Below are positions 6,030 through 14,975 of a stretch of 64,000 nt of DNA, piece by piece. Positions within the stretch are counted from its first letter, which is position 1. Each line of letters opens with the position of its first letter. The DNA is taken from the sequence record PQ799574.1, one strand, 5' to 3'. Both the position numbers and the translations under genes were made by a program. Source of the DNA: Escherichia phage vB_EcoM_Maryam. Below the pieces are notes generated by a model. That model was not told where the DNA came from and searched no databases. It was given only the letters and a program-made list of their open reading frames with translations.

Positions 6030-6041
6030 TTTCACAAAGTT

Positions 6042-6074
6042 GTTTACATGGGGTTTTAGTAGTGATACTATTAC
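6042..6074 (+). promoter_or_regulatory. T4-type early promoter (-35 GTTTAC, -10 region AGTGATACTATTAC)
   Basis: GTTTAC plus extended -10 at the usual spacing; A/T-rich upstream; first copy of a direct repeat. Confidence 0.6.
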
Positions 6075-6107
6075 CCTATCAAAACAAATGTGAAATTGGA
6101 GAACAAA

Positions 6108-6341
6108 ATGAAAACGTATCAAGAATTTATTGCTGAAACTGCTGATGTAAAAGTTGAGTTTATTTACACTGGCAAGAAAGATAAAATGGGTGAAATGCCT
6201 CATGGAGTTCTTCGTGATGCATTAGATGATTTCGGTCAACTCGGTGGTGAAGAGTTTGGCGATTACTTTGTTATCTATGGCCCGGCAAAAGTCATTGAGA
6301 AATGGGCTGATAAATATAAATCAATTTTTCGTAAAAAATAA
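6108..6341 (+). CDS. internal protein (ipI position) with capsid-targeting N-terminus
   Basis: N-terminus MKTYQEFIAE equals the T-even internal-protein capsid targeting sequence; body differs from T4 IPI; alternative start 6090. Confidence 0.65.
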   Translation: MKTYQEFIAETADVKVEFIYTGKKDKMGEMPHGVLRDALDDFGQLGGEEFGDYFVIYGPAKVIEKWADKYKSIFRKK

Positions 6342-6374
6342 GTTTACTTTTAGATAGGGTAGTGATACTATTAC
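6342..6374 (+). promoter_or_regulatory. T4-type early promoter, second copy of the 6042 repeat
   Basis: GTTTAC and identical 22-mer agtgatactattaccctatcaa as at 6061-6082. Confidence 0.6.
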
Positions 6375-6399
6375 CCTATCAACTACCGAGGAGAATAAA

Positions 6400-7937: not shown

Positions 7938-8021
7938 GGGGAGTTATCCCGTAGAGGTAGCGGTGTGGACTGTAAATCCATTGTCATTGCGACTCGGGTG
8001 GTTCGACTCCATCACTCCCCA
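7938..8021 (+). tRNA. tRNA-Tyr-like (anticodon GUA, long variable arm); possibly pseudo-tRNA
   Basis: acceptor ggggagt/actcccc perfect, anticodon loop ctGTAaa, variable arm resembles bacterial tRNA-Tyr, T-loop ttcgact, CCA follows; D-arm pairs poorly. Confidence 0.5.
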
Positions 8022-8070: not shown

Positions 8071-8736
8071 ATGCATTTTTATCTTTATAAAATAACAAAT
8101 AAAATTAATAATAAAATTTATATTGGTGTGCATTCTACCGAAAATTTAGATGATGGATATATGGGTTCTGGTAAATTATTAAAAAGAGCCCAAGACAAGT
8201 ATGGTATAGAAAATTTTTCTAAAGAAATATTAGAGTATTTTGATGATAAAGAATCTATGCTTGAAGCCGAGAAAAATATTGTCACAGAAGAGTTTTTAAA
8301 TAGACCAGATGTGTATAATTTAAAACTTGGCGGTGAAGGTGGATGGGACCATATAAATATTCCTGGGATGCTAAACCAGAAGAAAGATGCTAGCTTAAAA
8401 GGAGCTAAATCGTTTAAATCGCGTTTTGAAAATGATATTTTACTTCAAGAAAAATATCGTAAAATTGGTTCAAATGTATTTAAACGTTTGTGGTCAACTC
8501 CTGAATACAAGGAAAAATTTTTAAATAATAGCAGATTTTTAAATAAGCATCATACTCCTGAAACTATTAATAAAATGAAAGAAATTCATGTTAAAAATAA
8601 TCATCAGAAAGGAGAAAAGAATTCCCAATTTGGTATGATGTGGATTCATTCATTAGATGAAAAAGTTTCTAAACGTATTAAGAAAACTGACCCAATTCCA
8701 GAAGGATGGTTTAAAGGTCGAAAAATGAAATTTTAA
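8071..8736 (+). CDS. segB: GIY-YIG homing endonuclease (SegB-like)
   Basis: 221 aa from ATG 8071; YLYKITN...KIYIG motif; embedded in tRNA cluster like T4 segB; upstream ORF extension to 7963 overlaps a tRNA. Confidence 0.75.
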   Translation: MHFYLYKITNKINNKIYIGVHSTENLDDGYMGSGKLLKRAQDKYGIENFSKEILEYFDDKESMLEAEKNIVTEEFLNRPDVYNLKLGGEGGWDHINIPGMLNQKKDASLKGAKSFKSRFENDILLQEKYRKIGSNVFKRLWSTPEYKEKFLNNSRFLNKHHTPETINKMKEIHVKNNHQKGEKNSQFGMMWIHSLDEKVSKRIKKTDPIPEGWFKGRKMKF

Positions 8737-8833: not shown

Positions 8834-9184
8834 ATGAAAGGTAATGTTTATTTAGTAGTTCATGATTTAACATTCTATTTTAATCATAATGATACTGTTA
8901 TTTCTGAACGTGTAATTAATTTGCTTTATCAGCATGCAGATTATGTTTATGTCGAAAACGAATTTGGTCATTGGCAATTTCTCAAAAATCGTTCATTTGG
9001 TTTAGATGGTTACGAATATTTTGAACGTAAAGACCTTTTAGATAAAATTCCGTTATCTACACAATATCAAAATCATAAGTCTTTACATAAATGTCGACTA
9101 ATTCGAAATGCTGAATCTGCTTATGAAGCAATTGATTTATGGCGTAAACGCCGTGAACAGATTGATGCTTTAAAAGAATATTAA
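8834..9184 (+). CDS. hypothetical protein
   Basis: 116 aa; ggaaaat RBS. Confidence 0.5.
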   Translation: MKGNVYLVVHDLTFYFNHNDTVISERVINLLYQHADYVYVENEFGHWQFLKNRSFGLDGYEYFERKDLLDKIPLSTQYQNHKSLHKCRLIRNAESAYEAIDLWRKRREQIDALKEY

Positions 9185-9493
9185 GAAGCCGGGTCGCTAC
9201 CGGTAAGTCGTCGGACTGATGTTCCCTGAGTAAGGAATTGCGTTAATAATCCTTGCGTTTATTGATGCCCTCTTACATCACAGCAGAAACGGCGCACCGA
9301 ATTATCGATTCGAGGAAATATCTTTGCCGTAAGCCGAGTAGCGTTTTTGACGGAACGTTCGGATATGGTCGAGATATGGCCTTTTAAAAATATTGAGTAG
9401 CGTCAACTGCTTGATAACCGGGTTCGAATCCCGGCGTTTCGTACAAACACTTGCCTTAGCAGGTGGAACCCCGACAAGGTTGCCGCAAGGCTT
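9185..9493 (+). ncRNA. candidate structured stable RNA region (T4 species 1/2 RNA-like, tRNA-like T-arm)
   Basis: about 300 bp with no ORF, locally GC-rich; GGGTTCGAATCCCGG T-arm-like motif at 9418-9432; sits just past tRNA-Arg where T4 encodes small stable RNAs. Confidence 0.4.
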
Positions 9494-9522
9494 AGCCCCG
9501 ACCGAAAGGTTGGGGCTTTTTG
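9494..9522 (+). terminator. rho-independent terminator (hairpin + T run)
   Basis: agcccc...ggggct stem followed by ttttt; first copy of a repeated module. Confidence 0.6.
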
Positions 9523-9523
9523 G

Positions 9524-9531
9524 TATAAATA
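9524..9531 (+). promoter_or_regulatory. late promoter TATAAATA
   Basis: exact TATAAATA about 40 nt upstream of the 9572 internal-protein-like gene. Confidence 0.6.
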
Positions 9532-9571
9532 TAGTAGTATATTAAATCCACGAATTAAAACAGGAAATAAG

Positions 9572-10045
9572 ATGAAATCATATACTCAATTTTTAAATGA
9601 AGCGGTGTTAAATGAAGCATCTAGCACCGAAATTCAAGCTGTCGCAAAAGCAGCCATTGCAGCGGGTAAATATTCTTACAAAGATGCTTCTGATGAATCG
9701 CGATTCCAGTTTGCACGCGACATGAAAGCGGAAGGATTTACGGGAAATGCAGTTAGTATGGCCTGGAAAAGTTTAGTTGCTACTGGCGCTGCTTTTGCAA
9801 AGGCTTCGGGTAAACCTGCTCCTAAAGCAGATCCTAAAGTCGCACAAGAGAAAAATATTGTTAAAGGAATTATCTCCAAATATGAAGCTATCCTTAAAGA
9901 GCTTTTAGTAATCAAAACTGAAGGCCAAAAACTAGCTCGTGCTTATAGTTTCAAAGATAACCCACATGCTCACTCTCTTGAGTATGTTGAAGACATCCAA
10001 AAAATTATTAAAGACCGCATTTGGTCTGCTAAACAAATCAAATAA
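9572..10045 (+). CDS. internal-protein-like head protein (CTS-like N-terminus MKSYTQFLNEA)
   Basis: 157 aa; N-terminus resembles capsid targeting sequence; own late promoter; basic/Ala-rich. Confidence 0.55.
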   Translation: MKSYTQFLNEAVLNEASSTEIQAVAKAAIAAGKYSYKDASDESRFQFARDMKAEGFTGNAVSMAWKSLVATGAAFAKASGKPAPKADPKVAQEKNIVKGIISKYEAILKELLVIKTEGQKLARAYSFKDNPHAHSLEYVEDIQKIIKDRIWSAKQIK

Positions 10046-10052
10046 CATTCTT

Positions 10053-10082
10053 AGCCCTAGCCGAAAGGTTGGGGCTTTTTGG
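10053..10082 (+). terminator. rho-independent terminator, second copy of the 9494 module
   Basis: shares ccgaaaggttggggctttttggtat with 9500-9525. Confidence 0.6.
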
Positions 10083-10213
10083 TATCTAGGCCTTTCCAGG
10101 CCTCTCTAGGCATCATTTAGTTTCTACCCTTTATAATATATTATCCTATCCTTTGATTTCCCCTCCCTGCCCTAGAATTCCCCAAAACTTTTTAAAAATT
10201 TTTTCACAAAACT

Positions 10214-10245
10214 GTTTACATCCCTGTTCTTCTATGGTACTATAC
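10214..10245 (+). promoter_or_regulatory. T4-type early promoter (GTTTAC ... TGGTACTATAC)
   Basis: -35 GTTTAC, 15-nt spacer, extended -10; A/T-rich upstream ttttcacaaaa. Confidence 0.7.
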
Positions 10246-10286: not shown

Positions 10287-10550
10287 ATGGATAATTACGG
10301 TGAACTGTTCAACTTTTTTATGAAATGTGTTTCAGAAGATTTTGGTCGTACAGTGAATGATATTAAAGTTATCGGTCCTGACCATCCGATGTTTGAAACT
10401 TACGCAGTAATGGGTAATGAAGATGGTCAGTGGTATACTGTAAAGGTTGTGATTAATATGTTCACAGCAGAAGGTTATGTTAAACTGTCTTCTAAAGTTT
10501 ACCATGATAACGATGAAATCGCAGAAGAATATTTCAATAATATGAAATAA
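10287..10550 (+). CDS. hypothetical protein
   Basis: 87 aa from ATG 10287 (track start 10275 is TTG); ggag RBS. Confidence 0.5.
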   Translation: MDNYGELFNFFMKCVSEDFGRTVNDIKVIGPDHPMFETYAVMGNEDGQWYTVKVVINMFTAEGYVKLSSKVYHDNDEIAEEYFNNMK

Positions 10551-13438: not shown

Positions 13439-14407
<969 letters not shown>

Positions 14408-14501: not shown

Positions 14502-14975
14502 ATGAAAACATATCAAGAATTTATTACTGAAGCAGCTATTAATTCTCAAATTATTGCTGAATCTTTTACTGATCTTTTGAAATTTAAAAAAGGACAGAAA
14601 ATCACTGCTGTACTGGATGATGGTACAGAAGTTGAGATGGATGTACAAGGATATAATTATGCAGTAGATGGAAAACTGTATAATAAATCTCATGCTAAAT
14701 TTGATTCATTTGACGACTTTGTTAATACAGTTGAAGATGAAAAAACTCGTAGATCCATTGCAACTGGTGATGCTAAGGTTCTTATGGCACATGGTCATGA
14801 ACGCATTCGCGCTAAACAGAATAAAATGGGTGAAGATAATTTCGCATTAGTTGGTTATCAATCTGGTAAACAAACTTATGGCTATCAACGTACTGCTACC
14901 ATGTATAATAAAAATGGTAAAATTGCCTTTGTGAATAGTAAAGGTTCTATTCAGTACGTTAAATCGTTCAAATAA
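14502..14975 (+). CDS. internal protein (ipII/ipIII position) with capsid targeting sequence MKTYQEFITEA
   Basis: 157 aa; canonical CTS N-terminus; sits next to gene e. Confidence 0.6.
   Translation: MKTYQEFITEAAINSQIIAESFTDLLKFKKGQKITAVLDDGTEVEMDVQGYNYAVDGKLYNKSHAKFDSFDDFVNTVEDEKTRRSIATGDAKVLMAHGHERIRAKQNKMGEDNFALVGYQSGKQTYGYQRTATMYNKNGKIAFVNSKGSIQYVKSFK

What the first reader, a model, noticed from the sequence alone, without database searches (positions are those of the whole stretch)
9494..10082. Second internal-protein-like gene with its own late promoter, bracketed by a duplicated terminator module
Two copies of cttagccc..ccgaaaggttggggctttttggtat lie at 9491-9525 and 10050-10085, flanking a late promoter (TATAAATA at 9524) and a 157-aa ORF starting MKSYTQFLNEA, a divergent capsid-targeting-like N-terminus. 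This is a self-contained, repeat-bounded module that looks like a mobile gene cassette.
Basis: partly seen in the sequence, partly recalled or inferred. Interest (0 to 1): 0.55.

Follow-up and report, generated by a model that had tools for sequence, protein, structure and literature searches.

The report
Third internal-protein gene slot in T4-like phages
A T4-like phage carries, between two copies of the same transcription terminator, a late-expressed gene whose protein has the address label that sends proteins into the phage head, at a gene slot that T2, T4 and T6 leave empty, so it is a testable new candidate for an injected anti-defence protein.

Summary
A 36-nt GC-rich hairpin plus U-tract terminator occurs twice (9491-9526 and 10050-10085; 33/36 identical; none expected by chance). 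The copies flank TATAAATA (9524-9531) and a 157-aa ORF (9572-10045). The window is a Tequatrovirus.

Copy 1 is the terminator of the tRNA/rnaD/rnaC operon. Copy 2 precedes the e.8 early promoter. T4, T2 and T6 have one copy and no ORF, an exact 559-bp difference.

ORF157 (phrog_2280, "unknown function") keeps all four residues shown experimentally to matter in the T4 capsid-targeting sequence: Y4 and F7 for targeting, L8 and E10 for gp21 cleavage. It is basic and under strong purifying selection. Its 98.7%-identical homologue was detected in purified fD1 virions, although that protein list is unspecific. It is syntenic in Mosigvirus and Jiaodavirus, so it is ancestral rather than itinerant.

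The slot is combinatorial: about 78 records are empty, 275 have ORF157 only, 37 have a second leader-bearing ORF187 only, and 121 have both. ORF187 moved recently between genera, and one joint lies inside the hairpin.

Verdict: probably an unrecognised internal-protein locus, shuffled by recombination at terminators. This is a new member of a known kind, of moderate interest.

The parts
9184..9298 (+). rnaD-like stable RNA (species 2 RNA homologue). Upstream context: part of the tRNA operon that terminator copy 1 ends.
   Evidence: 113/116 identical to T4 rnaD; T4 annotation
9305..9443 (+). rnaC-like stable RNA (species 1 RNA homologue), the last gene of the tRNA operon
   Evidence: 136/139 identical to T4 rnaC
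9491..9526 (+). Terminator module T, copy 1 (hairpin 9494-9517, U-tract 9518-9522, then GGTAT). It is the intrinsic terminator of the tRNA/rnaD/rnaC operon and the left boundary of the cassette.
   Evidence: the same element is the single copy in T4 and is annotated 'pot. terminator' in the T4 record X03016
9524..9531 (+). T4-type late promoter core TATAAATA. It straddles the end of repeat copy 1 and lies 41-48 nt upstream of the ATG.
   Evidence: xATAAATA is conserved at the equivalent place in Tequatrovirus, Mosigvirus, Jiaodavirus and two metagenomic lineages
9562..9567 (+). Shine-Dalgarno AGGAAA
   Evidence: read directly
9572..10045 (+). ORF157 (157 aa, pI 9.5), a candidate internal head protein. 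The leader is aa 1-10 (MKSYTQFLNE), with a second LNE site at aa 13-15. An N-terminal helical domain spans about aa 18-75, a Lys/Pro/Ala linker aa 76-87, and a C-terminal helical hairpin aa 88-154.
   Evidence: fD1 g140 flagged PPAP
9572..9616 (+). Codons for the capsid-targeting-like leader and two predicted gp21 sites (LNE|A after aa 10 and after aa 15)
   Evidence: rules taken from PMC9026906
10050..10085 (+). Terminator module T, copy 2 (hairpin 10053-10076). It terminates ORF157 and forms the right boundary of the cassette. In other phages the ORF187 cassette is joined here.
10215..10243 (+). Early-type promoter of e.8 (GTTTAC...TACTAT). Conserved right flank of the slot.
   Evidence: identical arrangement in T4
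10288..10550 (+). e.8 homologue, the first gene after the slot

Best explanation
This is an insulated late-gene unit sitting in a cassette slot between the tRNA/rnaD/rnaC operon and the e.8 early operon of a T4-like phage.

Expression. Terminator copy 1 stops tRNA-operon transcription. A late (gp55-type) promoter that begins in the last bases of that terminator then drives ORF157. Terminator copy 2 stops the transcript before the e.8 early promoter.

Protein. ORF157 carries an N-terminal capsid-targeting-type leader. Most likely the leader takes the protein into the prohead core, and the gp21 protease removes it after Leu-Asn-Glu (after residue 10 and/or 15). The roughly 15.5-16 kDa basic mature protein would then stay with the DNA and be injected. 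By analogy with Ip1, Ip2, Ip3 and Bas37_0260, it would act against a host defence there.

Polymorphism. The two terminator copies also serve as 31-36-bp homology linkers. Recombination between them, within one genome or between co-infecting phages, deletes the gene (giving the T2/T4/T6 state), swaps it for a second leader-bearing gene (ORF187), or stacks the two in tandem.

What is shown: the repeat, both hairpins, the exact indel, the four configurations, a chimeric joint, the leader determinants, purifying selection, and detection of the protein in virion preparations.

What is inferred: promoter activity, packaging through the leader, cleavage, injection and the anti-defence role.
For: Anatomy. 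T4 has a single copy and differs from the window by one clean 559-bp gap.

Leader. ORF157 ranks third of 680 ORFs against MKTYQEFIAEA, behind only the two canonical IP genes of the window. Y4, F7, L8 and E10 match the residues mapped for targeting and processing, and gp21 cuts after L/I-X-E (PMC9026906). [LI]xE lies at positions 8-10 in ORF157, ORF187, both window IPs and the Mosigvirus homologue, and one residue earlier (7-9) in the Jiaodavirus homologue, whose leader is one residue shorter. Leader-only PHROG scans hit only internal head/virion protein families among annotated families. hhalign between the ORF157 family and ORF187 aligns only the leader. The aromatic-x-x-F-L motif persists in the distant members P0015, P0017, P0018, P0020 and P0021. 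The leader has low pLDDT in the AF2 model, as expected for a detachable peptide.

Gene reality. dN/dS is 0.05-0.08. The protein is basic and Lys-rich.

Virion. fD1 g140, 98.7% identical, is flagged as a strict PPAP, while its neighbours g138 and g139 are not.

Promoter. TATAAATA, AATAAATA, GATAAATA or CATAAATA lies 35-45 nt upstream in five lineages.

Cassette behaviour. The junction census gives empty 78, rnaC-T-ORF157 383, ORF157-T-e.8 275, ORF157-T-ORF187 121 and rnaC-T-ORF187 37. RB51 and RB14 differ only between the T-tract of T and GGGCTTTTTGGTAT. The G/A base after the T-tract is shuffled relative to what follows it. The middle terminator of PhAPEC2 combines the Mosigvirus 5' arm with the Tequatrovirus loop and 3' arm. 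ORF187 has dS 0.16 against 1.67 for ORF157 in the same genome pair.

Functional analogy. Ip1-3 inhibit distinct GmrSD enzymes (PMC12373910). Bas37_0260 inhibits McrBC.
Against: The fD1 particle proteome is unspecific. It lists 113-137 of 277 phage proteins, including DenV, lysozyme and NudE, together with 672 host proteins.

The window's leader differs from the canonical CTS at 5 of 10 positions, and its best hit to an annotated IP family is marginal (E 0.054).

TATAAATA is not enriched in the window, and no transcript data were examined.

ORF157 is strongly conserved and vertically inherited, unlike the proverbially hypervariable IPs.

The literature places IP genes in only two loci and states that they are absent elsewhere.

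No structural analogue gives a functional hint.

A homology of 31-36 bp is short for T4 recombination. The swap between ORF157 and ORF187 could also arise from crossovers in the longer conserved flanks rather than in T itself.
Confidence: 0.65

Rival explanations
1. ORF157 is a late cytoplasmic protein that is not packaged, for example an accessory factor linked to the adjacent tRNA/stable-RNA genes. Its N-terminus would then resemble the capsid-targeting sequence by chance or as a relic.
For: No family or fold assignment was obtained. The virion proteome that lists it also lists many non-structural proteins. The gene lies outside the two recognised IP loci. Its conservation pattern (omega about 0.05) would fit a housekeeping accessory.
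Against: The leader motif, with its aromatic at 4, Phe at 7 and Leu-x-Glu, is kept across homologues that are otherwise 25-40% identical. That is hard to explain for a relic. Leader-only scans hit IP families specifically. The second cargo of the same slot, ORF187, has an almost canonical leader, MKTYAEFLTEA. The promoter is of the late type, matching head assembly.
Confidence: 0.2
2. ORF157 is packaged, but it is a structural or DNA-condensing head component (a charge-neutralising basic protein similar in role to IPIII) rather than an inhibitor of a host defence.
For: The protein is basic and Lys-rich, with a Lys/Pro/Ala linker. It shows strong purifying selection and vertical inheritance across genera. 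Lysines of internal proteins contact packaged DNA (PMC3012670).
Against: About 115 of roughly 500 records lack the gene (the empty and ORF187-only states), and T2, T4 and T6 are among those with an empty slot. It is therefore dispensable for head structure. All four leader-bearing IPs with a known role are anti-restriction factors. Even IPIII turned out to be a GmrSD inhibitor.
Confidence: 0.12
3. The module is an autonomous mobile element, and the 36-nt direct repeat is a target-site duplication made on insertion.
For: The insert is bounded exactly by a direct repeat, and relatives have a single-copy 'empty site'. A GIY-YIG homing endonuclease gene lies about 1 kb upstream.
Against: The cassette encodes no transposase, integrase or endonuclease. 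The 'duplicated' sequence is a functional terminator that pre-exists at the site. The two copies differ by structure-preserving changes. ORF157 is at the same locus in three genera with saturated synonymous divergence. The window holds only two copies of T.
Confidence: 0.03

Closest known systems
[quoted passage not shown] 1994 as cited in PMC2839356; Silas et al. 2025, PMC12373910; Bas37_0260 in bioRxiv 10.1101/2025.11.20.689424)
   Same: The proteins are small and mostly basic, unrelated to one another apart from an N-terminal MK(T/S)(Y/F)xEF(I/L)xE leader with a gp21 L/I-X-E site. They are accessory genes with presence/absence and replacement polymorphism among close relatives, and each gene is flanked by repeated regulatory sequence.
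   Different: The locus is a third one (rnaC terminator to e.8), whereas the two described loci are 57B-trna.4 and e-denV. It is empty in T2, T4 and T6. The linkers are a GC-rich intrinsic terminator, and a late-promoter motif is the only promoter signal seen, whereas the IP loci use early-promoter/AT-rich stem-loop elements. ORF157 is conserved and vertically inherited across genera. Packaging, cleavage and injection have not been shown.
PeSL (promoter-early stem-loop) mobile regulatory cassettes of RB49/phi1 and other T4-like phages (Arbiol et al. 2010, PMC2839356; Comeau et al. 2014, PMC4122927)
   Same: Repeated composite promoter/terminator motifs flank a non-essential ORF. A relative has one motif and no ORF. 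The proposed mechanism is homologous recombination between the motifs, which gives transcriptionally insulated, exchangeable modules.
   Different: PeSLs combine a sigma70-like early promoter with a stem-loop and are scattered in dozens of copies through hyperplastic regions. Here the motif is a terminator with a late promoter abutting it, found at one locus only (2 copies in 64 kb). Mini-circles were not examined.
Morons of lambdoid phages (as discussed in PMC2839356)
   Same: A single gene carries its own promoter and terminator and is inserted between two operons without disturbing them.
   Different: Moron gain is thought not to depend on conserved flanking sequence. Here the flanking terminators carry the recombination joints.
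Terminator of the T4 tRNA gene cluster downstream of species 1 RNA (GenBank X03016 features)
   Same: Copy 1 is this very element (35 of 36 positions identical to the T4 copy), at the same position after rnaC.
   Different: In the window it is duplicated, and the duplicate terminates a protein-coding late gene.

Membership tests
T4-type internal (capsid-targeted) proteins | N-terminal capsid-targeting sequence; the targeting determinants are at residues 4 and 7 of the 10-residue leader (Y4 and F7 in IPIII) | tested here: met
   ORF157 has Y4 and F7. It ranks third of 680 ORFs in the window by similarity to MKTYQEFIAEA. The determinants are taken from PMC9026906. Homologues have Y or F at position 4 and an invariant F7.
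T4-type internal (capsid-targeted) proteins | gp21 processing site L/I-X-E at the end of the leader (residues 8 and 10) | tested here: met
   LNE|A is present at residues 8-10 and again at 13-15. The motif rule is from PMC9026906. This shows that the site is present in the sequence, not that it is cleaved.
T4-type internal (capsid-targeted) proteins | Physical presence in the virion | tested here: inconclusive
   fD1 g140 (98.7% identical) is flagged as a strict 'PPAP' in Table S3 of PMC8309999. That list covers 41-49% of all phage proteins and includes obvious non-structural ones.
T4-type internal (capsid-targeted) proteins | Leader removed by the prohead protease; mature protein injected with the DNA | not testable with these tools
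   This needs N-terminal or semi-tryptic mass spectrometry of purified heads, and injection assays.
T4-type internal (capsid-targeted) proteins | Encoded in one of the two described IP loci (57B-trna.4, e-denV) | tested here: not met
   The gene lies between rnaC and e.8. The literature states that IP genes are absent elsewhere. This is a descriptive rather than a mechanistic criterion.
T4-type internal (capsid-targeted) proteins | Sequence homology of the mature part to a named IP family | tested here: not met
   The only family hit is phrog_2280, 'unknown function'. There is no Pfam or NCBIfam hit. BLASTP against the window's IPs and T4 IPI aligns only the leader. Known IPs are likewise unrelated to each other.
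PeSL-type mobile regulatory cassettes | Repeated regulatory motif on both sides of an ORF, with a single motif at the empty site in a relative | tested here: met
PeSL-type mobile regulatory cassettes | The motif consists of a strong sigma70-like early promoter plus a stem-loop | tested here: not met
   The motif here is an intrinsic terminator, and the abutting promoter is of late type (TATAAATA). No sigma70-like hexamer pair lies within it.
PeSL-type mobile regulatory cassettes | Many dispersed copies in hyperplastic regions | tested here: not met
   There are only two copies in 64 kb, even allowing 3 mismatches.
PeSL-type mobile regulatory cassettes | Recombination joints fall within the motif | tested here: met
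   The middle terminator of PhAPEC2 is chimeric, and the G/A after the T-tract is shuffled. RB51/RB14 homology ends at the T-tract.
Intrinsic (Rho-independent) terminator | GC-rich hairpin immediately followed by a U-tract | tested here: met
   Each copy has 10 bp, a GAAA loop and U5, at -20.3 and -18.3 kcal/mol, with no shuffle folding as well. Termination activity was not assayed.
T4 late (gp55/gp33) promoter | TATAAATA at about -10, upstream of a late gene | tested here: inconclusive
   There is an exact match at 9524-9531, and an ATAAATA core is conserved in five lineages. The motif is not enriched in the window, and no 5'-end data were available.

The most novel reading that the evidence does not exclude
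T-even-type phages have a third, overlooked internal-protein locus. It is empty in the model phages T2, T4 and T6, which would explain why it was missed. Its resident gene ORF157 would encode a conserved, injected protein that disables a host defence other than those blocked by Ip1-3. The GC-rich terminators of the locus would work as portable recombination linkers that let leader-bearing cargo genes cross even between Tequatrovirus and Mosigvirus, genera regarded as poorly inter-recombining.
Probability: 0.3. Interest if true: 0.65.

Novelty: new member of a known kind. Interest (0 to 1): 0.5.

Why it matters
Every T4-type internal protein with a known function inhibits a type IV restriction system (Ip1, Ip2 and Ip3 against GmrSD variants; Bas37_0260 against McrBC). 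These proteins help to set host range on wild E. coli.

The literature treats them as confined to two loci. A third locus carrying two more leader-bearing genes would add ready-made candidates for anti-defence screens. ORF157 is in about 380-400 Tequatrovirus records and about 100 from Mosigvirus. ORF187 is in 165 records.

T4 naturally lacks both genes, which makes it a clean recipient for gain-of-function tests.

The locus also gives a compact natural example of how short terminator sequences can act as crossover points for adding, stacking, swapping or deleting insulated genes. It includes one visible chimeric joint from a cross-genus transfer.

Tried and rejected
- **Rfam.** A scan of 5-12 kb found only tRNAs. 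No family covers rnaC/rnaD or the terminator.
- **Protein families.** Pfam and NCBIfam gave nothing significant for ORF157. PADLOC was not run.
- **Structure.** The AF2 model has pLDDT 75.6. Foldseek against BFVD and PDB returned only self-family hits or E>1, so the fold gives no functional hint.
- **Remote homology.** An exhaustive HMMER profile search found only 13 proteins, all T4-like family members or fragments.
- **Paralogy of ORF157 and ORF187.** Both match phrog_2280, but hhalign and BLASTP align only the leader. I do not claim homology of the mature parts.
- **IMG/VR scan for the terminator.** It returned only 2 contigs, too few for a census, so I used the GenBank phage collection instead.
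- **First census attempts.** Long or 120-nt queries were confounded by variability in e.7 and by the tool joining split pieces. I replaced them with 196-nt junction queries at E<=1e-60.
- **Literature.** Repoila 1994 is not held. A search for the fHe-Yen9-01 proteome found no primary paper, and one search was wasted on over-general terms. The Petrov 2010 review does not mention IPs.
- **Rejected readings.** I rejected target-site duplication by a transposon-like element and chance similarity of two independent terminators, because the flanks CTTAG and GGTAT outside the hairpin are also shared.
Full report
**What the window is**

The 2-kb region around the finding is 100% identical to Escherichia phage vB_EcoT_BCU-2 and 95-97% identical to hundreds of Tequatrovirus (T4-like) genomes. 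On the + strand the gene order is as follows.
- 57B, then an internal-protein (IP) gene with the canonical leader MKTYQEFIAE at 6108-6341.
- trna.4, trna.3 and trna.2.
- Eight tRNAs, a GIY-YIG seg-type endonuclease, and tRNA-Arg.
- A 116-aa ORF.
- Homologues of the T4 stable RNAs: rnaD at 9184-9298 and rnaC at 9305-9443.
- The feature under study.
- The e.8 to e.1 genes, and lysozyme e at 13913.
- Another IP gene at 14502-14975.

**Checking the observation**

A 36-nt direct repeat lies at 9491-9526 and 10050-10085, with 33/36 positions identical. With up to three mismatches it occurs only twice in 64 kb, and none of 100 shuffles produced a match.

Each copy folds into a 10-bp GC-rich hairpin with a GAAA loop followed by U5 (-20.3 and -18.3 kcal/mol; no shuffle folds as well). 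The three differences lie in the 5' arm and preserve every pair through G-U wobble.

TATAAATA is at 9524-9531, and its first three bases are the last three of repeat copy 1. An AGGAAA ribosome-binding site follows at 9562-9567. The 157-codon ORF runs from 9572 to 10045.

TATAAATA alone is not above chance in this AT-rich DNA: 10 were found and 10.5 expected. The RB51 GenBank record already notes that this ORF is 'flanked by 34 bp imperfect direct repeat', so the repeat itself is not a new sighting.

**What the two copies are**

T4 has exactly one copy, directly after rnaC and directly before the e.8 early promoter. The old T4 entry X03016 labels it a potential terminator. Aligning the window with T4 gives a single clean 559-bp gap placed inside the repeat.

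Copy 1 is therefore the terminator of the tRNA/stable-RNA operon. Copy 2 terminates ORF157.

**Is ORF157 a real gene?**

Yes. It is found in 511 phage records, always annotated as 'hypothetical protein'. Its dN/dS is 0.05-0.08 within Tequatrovirus and against Mosigvirus. A 98.7%-identical homologue, fD1 g140, was detected by mass spectrometry. It belongs to phrog_2280, 'unknown function', and has no Pfam or NCBIfam match.

**Is it internal-protein-like?**

Several independent tests point that way.

1. *Rank among ORFs.* I scored the first 11 residues of all 680 ATG-initiated ORFs of the window against MKTYQEFIAEA. ORF157 ranks third with a score of 34. The next ORF scores 22, and the mean is -2.2 (sd 7.2). 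The top two are the canonical IP genes at 6108 and 14502.
2. *Experimentally defined residues.* Mutational work summarised in PMC9026906 places capsid targeting at residues 4 and 7 of the 10-residue leader and processing at residues 8 and 10. The gp21 protease cuts after L/I-X-E. ORF157 has Y4, F7, L8 and E10, and a second LNE|A at residues 13-15.
3. *Leader-only family scans.* Scans of 25-residue leaders from this family against 38,880 PHROGs hit their own family. Beyond that, the only annotated families hit are 'internal head protein' or 'internal virion protein', aligned N-terminus to N-terminus. The hits are marginal for the window's own variant (E 0.054) and clearer for a sister variant (E 0.0014).
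4. *Persistence of the leader.* It survives in homologues that are otherwise only about 25-40% identical: MKSYAEFLTE, MKFKEFLAE, MLKFNEFLAE, MINFSDFLNE and MKSFSSFLNE.
5. *Physical properties.* The protein is basic (pI 9.5) and Lys-rich. In the AF2 model (pLDDT 75.6) the leader has low confidence. It precedes a confident helical domain, a Lys/Pro/Ala linker and a helical hairpin.
6. *Virion detection.* fD1 g140 passes the strict threshold for particle-associated proteins, while its neighbours g138 and g139 (e.8) do not.

The last point is weak. That list holds 113-137 of 277 phage proteins, including DenV, lysozyme and NudE. Fold searches gave no functional analogue.

**The promoter**

The equivalent upstream region carries the following motifs, always 35-45 nt before the ATG and downstream of a terminator.

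| Lineage | Motif |
|---|---|
| Tequatrovirus (window, AR1, G29, pSs-1, RB51) | TATAAATA |
| Jiaodavirus (Klebsiella phage phiKp_22) | TATAAATA |
| Mosigvirus | AATAAATA |
| Metagenomic lineage L012 | GATAAATA |
| Metagenomic lineage L013 | CATAAATA |

An invariant ATAAATA core in otherwise poorly alignable spacers supports a late promoter. Promoter activity itself was not tested.

**Is it a mobile cassette?**

The answer has two parts.

*ORF157 is an old resident.* It occupies the same position, after the tRNA/rnaC terminator and before the e-side early genes, in Tequatrovirus, Mosigvirus and Jiaodavirus. Between the Mosigvirus PhAPEC2 and the Tequatrovirus pSs-1 its synonymous divergence is saturated (dS 1.67). 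That resembles the nearby gene e.6 (dS 1.28).

*The slot is a combinatorial cassette site.* A second gene, ORF187, starts with MKTYAEFLTEA, an almost canonical leader. It has its own xATAAATA motif and its own hairpin ending in the shared GGGCTTTTTGGTAT. It can follow ORF157 or replace it.

I queried the GenBank phage collection with 196-nt junction sequences and required contiguous matches at E<=1e-60. The results are below.

| Junction | Records |
|---|---|
| Empty (rnaC-T-e.8) | 78 |
| rnaC-T-ORF157 | 383 |
| ORF157-T-e.8 (ORF157 only) | 275 |
| ORF157-T-ORF187 (both) | 121 |
| rnaC-T-ORF187 (ORF187 only) | 37 |

T4, T2 and T6 are all empty. That plausibly explains why classical work never met these genes.

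**Evidence that the terminator is the crossover point**

RB51 (ORF157 only) and RB14 (ORF187 only) are 96-98% identical up to the T-tract of T and again from GGGCTTTTTGGTAT onwards. The interior between those points is replaced.

Across twelve loci, the same T is preceded by one of two left contexts: the rnaC trailer or the ORF157 3' end. It is followed by one of three continuations: GTATAAATA, GTATCTAGG or GTTTGAATCAC. The G/A base after the T-tract is shuffled relative to the continuation.

ORF187 is 95-99% identical at the protein level in 164 of 165 records, including the Mosigviruses RB69 and PhAPEC2. Its dS is 0.16 in the same genome pair where ORF157 has 1.67. This is a recent cross-genus transfer.

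In PhAPEC2 the terminator between the two genes has the Mosigvirus-specific 5' arm (GCCCCTTCC) joined to the Tequatrovirus loop and 3' arm (GAAAGGTTGGGGCTTTTTA). The joint therefore lies inside the hairpin.

A single unequal crossover between the T after ORF157 in one phage and the T before ORF187 in another would produce the 'both' state and the 'empty' state as reciprocal products. Intramolecular recombination between the two T copies would delete ORF157.

According to PMC2839356, T4 recombination needs only small (<50 bp) patches of homology. The same paper notes that T4 deletions often involve GGGC/GCCC inverted motifs, which T contains.

**Most likely mechanism**

The feature is a transcriptionally insulated late gene for a capsid-targeted protein. 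The protein would be loaded into the prohead core through its leader, trimmed by gp21 after LNE, and injected with the DNA.

All four leader-bearing proteins with a known role inhibit type IV restriction systems: Ip1, Ip2 and Ip3 against distinct GmrSD enzymes (PMC12373910) and Bas37_0260 against McrBC. An anti-defence role is therefore the best functional guess. It rests on analogy only.

Two features fit less well with the 'hypervariable IP' picture: the strong conservation of ORF157 and its vertical inheritance. They leave room for a more structural, DNA-associated role.

**Comparison with what is known**

The nearest kin are the T-even IP genes and their two polymorphic loci, and the PeSL cassette model of Arbiol and Comeau.

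[quoted passage not shown] This locus is a third one.

Its linkers also differ from both known cases. They are a GC-rich intrinsic terminator with an abutting late promoter, present at one site only. The IP loci use early-promoter/AT-rich stem-loop elements, and PeSLs are dispersed sigma70-type elements.

I therefore file ORF157 as a probable new member of the IP kind, not as a PeSL. Virion residence, cleavage and injection remain to be shown.

**Verdict**

The IP-like reading is supported by sequence logic and by one weak proteomic datum. The 'mobile cassette' reading is refined to 'resident gene in a terminator-delimited, recombination-shuffled slot'. Interest is moderate: the result is incremental in kind, but it is directly testable and relevant to phage host range.

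Noticed in passing
window 6030-6085 and 6343-6390, flanking the IP gene at 6108-6341: The canonical IP gene (77 aa, phrog_8111 'internal virion protein') is bracketed by two copies of an early-promoter-plus-stem-loop module (GTTTAC...TAGTGATACTATTACCCTATCAA). These are the PeSL-like linkers that the literature describes for the ipI locus. No TATAAATA lies upstream of this gene.
   Followed up: partly
L008 1592-2155 (RB14); L010 1596-2159 (pSs-1); L016 1601-2164 (PhAPEC2): A second leader-bearing gene, ORF187 (MKTYAEFLTEAAK..., pI 9.4), occupies the same slot in 165 records. It is about 97% identical between the Tequatrovirus and Mosigvirus genomes compared (dS 0.16, against 1.67 for the adjacent ORF157), which points to a recent cross-genus transfer. 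It is absent from the window.
   Followed up: yes
L005 1867-2429 (G29); RB69 ORF148c/149c; P0006, P0014, P0016: Both slot genes are repeatedly found broken. ORF187 is split by a frameshift in G29, G4500 and RB69. ORF157 is truncated in SfPhi01 (111 aa) and in several metagenomic variants. This fits dispensable, conditionally useful genes.
   Followed up: partly
window 8834-9184: A 116-aa ORF (phrog_3355, unknown function) sits between tRNA-Arg and rnaD. It is absent from T4 but present in AR1, RB51 (annotated there as similar to RB69ORF150c) and Mosigvirus. This is another indel inside the tRNA operon.
   Followed up: no
window 8071-8736 (the ORF is listed as starting at 7963): A GIY-YIG seg-type homing endonuclease gene (Pfam PF01541, E 6.6e-6) lies between tRNA-Tyr and tRNA-Arg. 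AR1 and G29 carry tRNA-Asn and tRNA-His at that place. Co-conversion tracts from seg homing could reach the cassette slot about 1 kb downstream.
   Followed up: partly
window 14502-14975: A third leader-bearing gene of the window (157 aa by coincidence; MKTYQEFITEA; phrog_3155 'internal virion protein'; Pfam DUF7412) lies in the e-denV IP locus. It has two [LI]xE sites (residues 8-10 and 18-20), like ORF157.
   Followed up: partly
window 13879-13886 and 13892-13899: Two TATAAATA motifs 13 nt apart lie just upstream of the lysozyme gene e. They are the only other intergenic pair of late-promoter motifs seen near the locus.
   Followed up: no
L011 593-1102 (metagenomic homologue P0017): In one distant lineage the ORF157-family gene has no terminator or promoter module. 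Its start overlaps the stop of an upstream small hydrophobic ORF (ATGA). The insulated-cassette architecture is therefore not universal in the family.
   Followed up: no
L015 (RB51, FJ839693) feature RB32ORF132c: The GenBank annotators had already recorded 'flanked by 34 bp imperfect direct repeat' for this ORF. The repeat was therefore noticed earlier, without interpretation.
   Followed up: yes
L005 1049-1142 (G29) and G9062/G4507 annotations: Some records annotate part of the rnaC homologue as 'tRNA-Lys' or 'tRNA-OTHER'. ARAGORN did not call a tRNA there in the window, and Rfam has no family for rnaC or rnaD.
   Followed up: no
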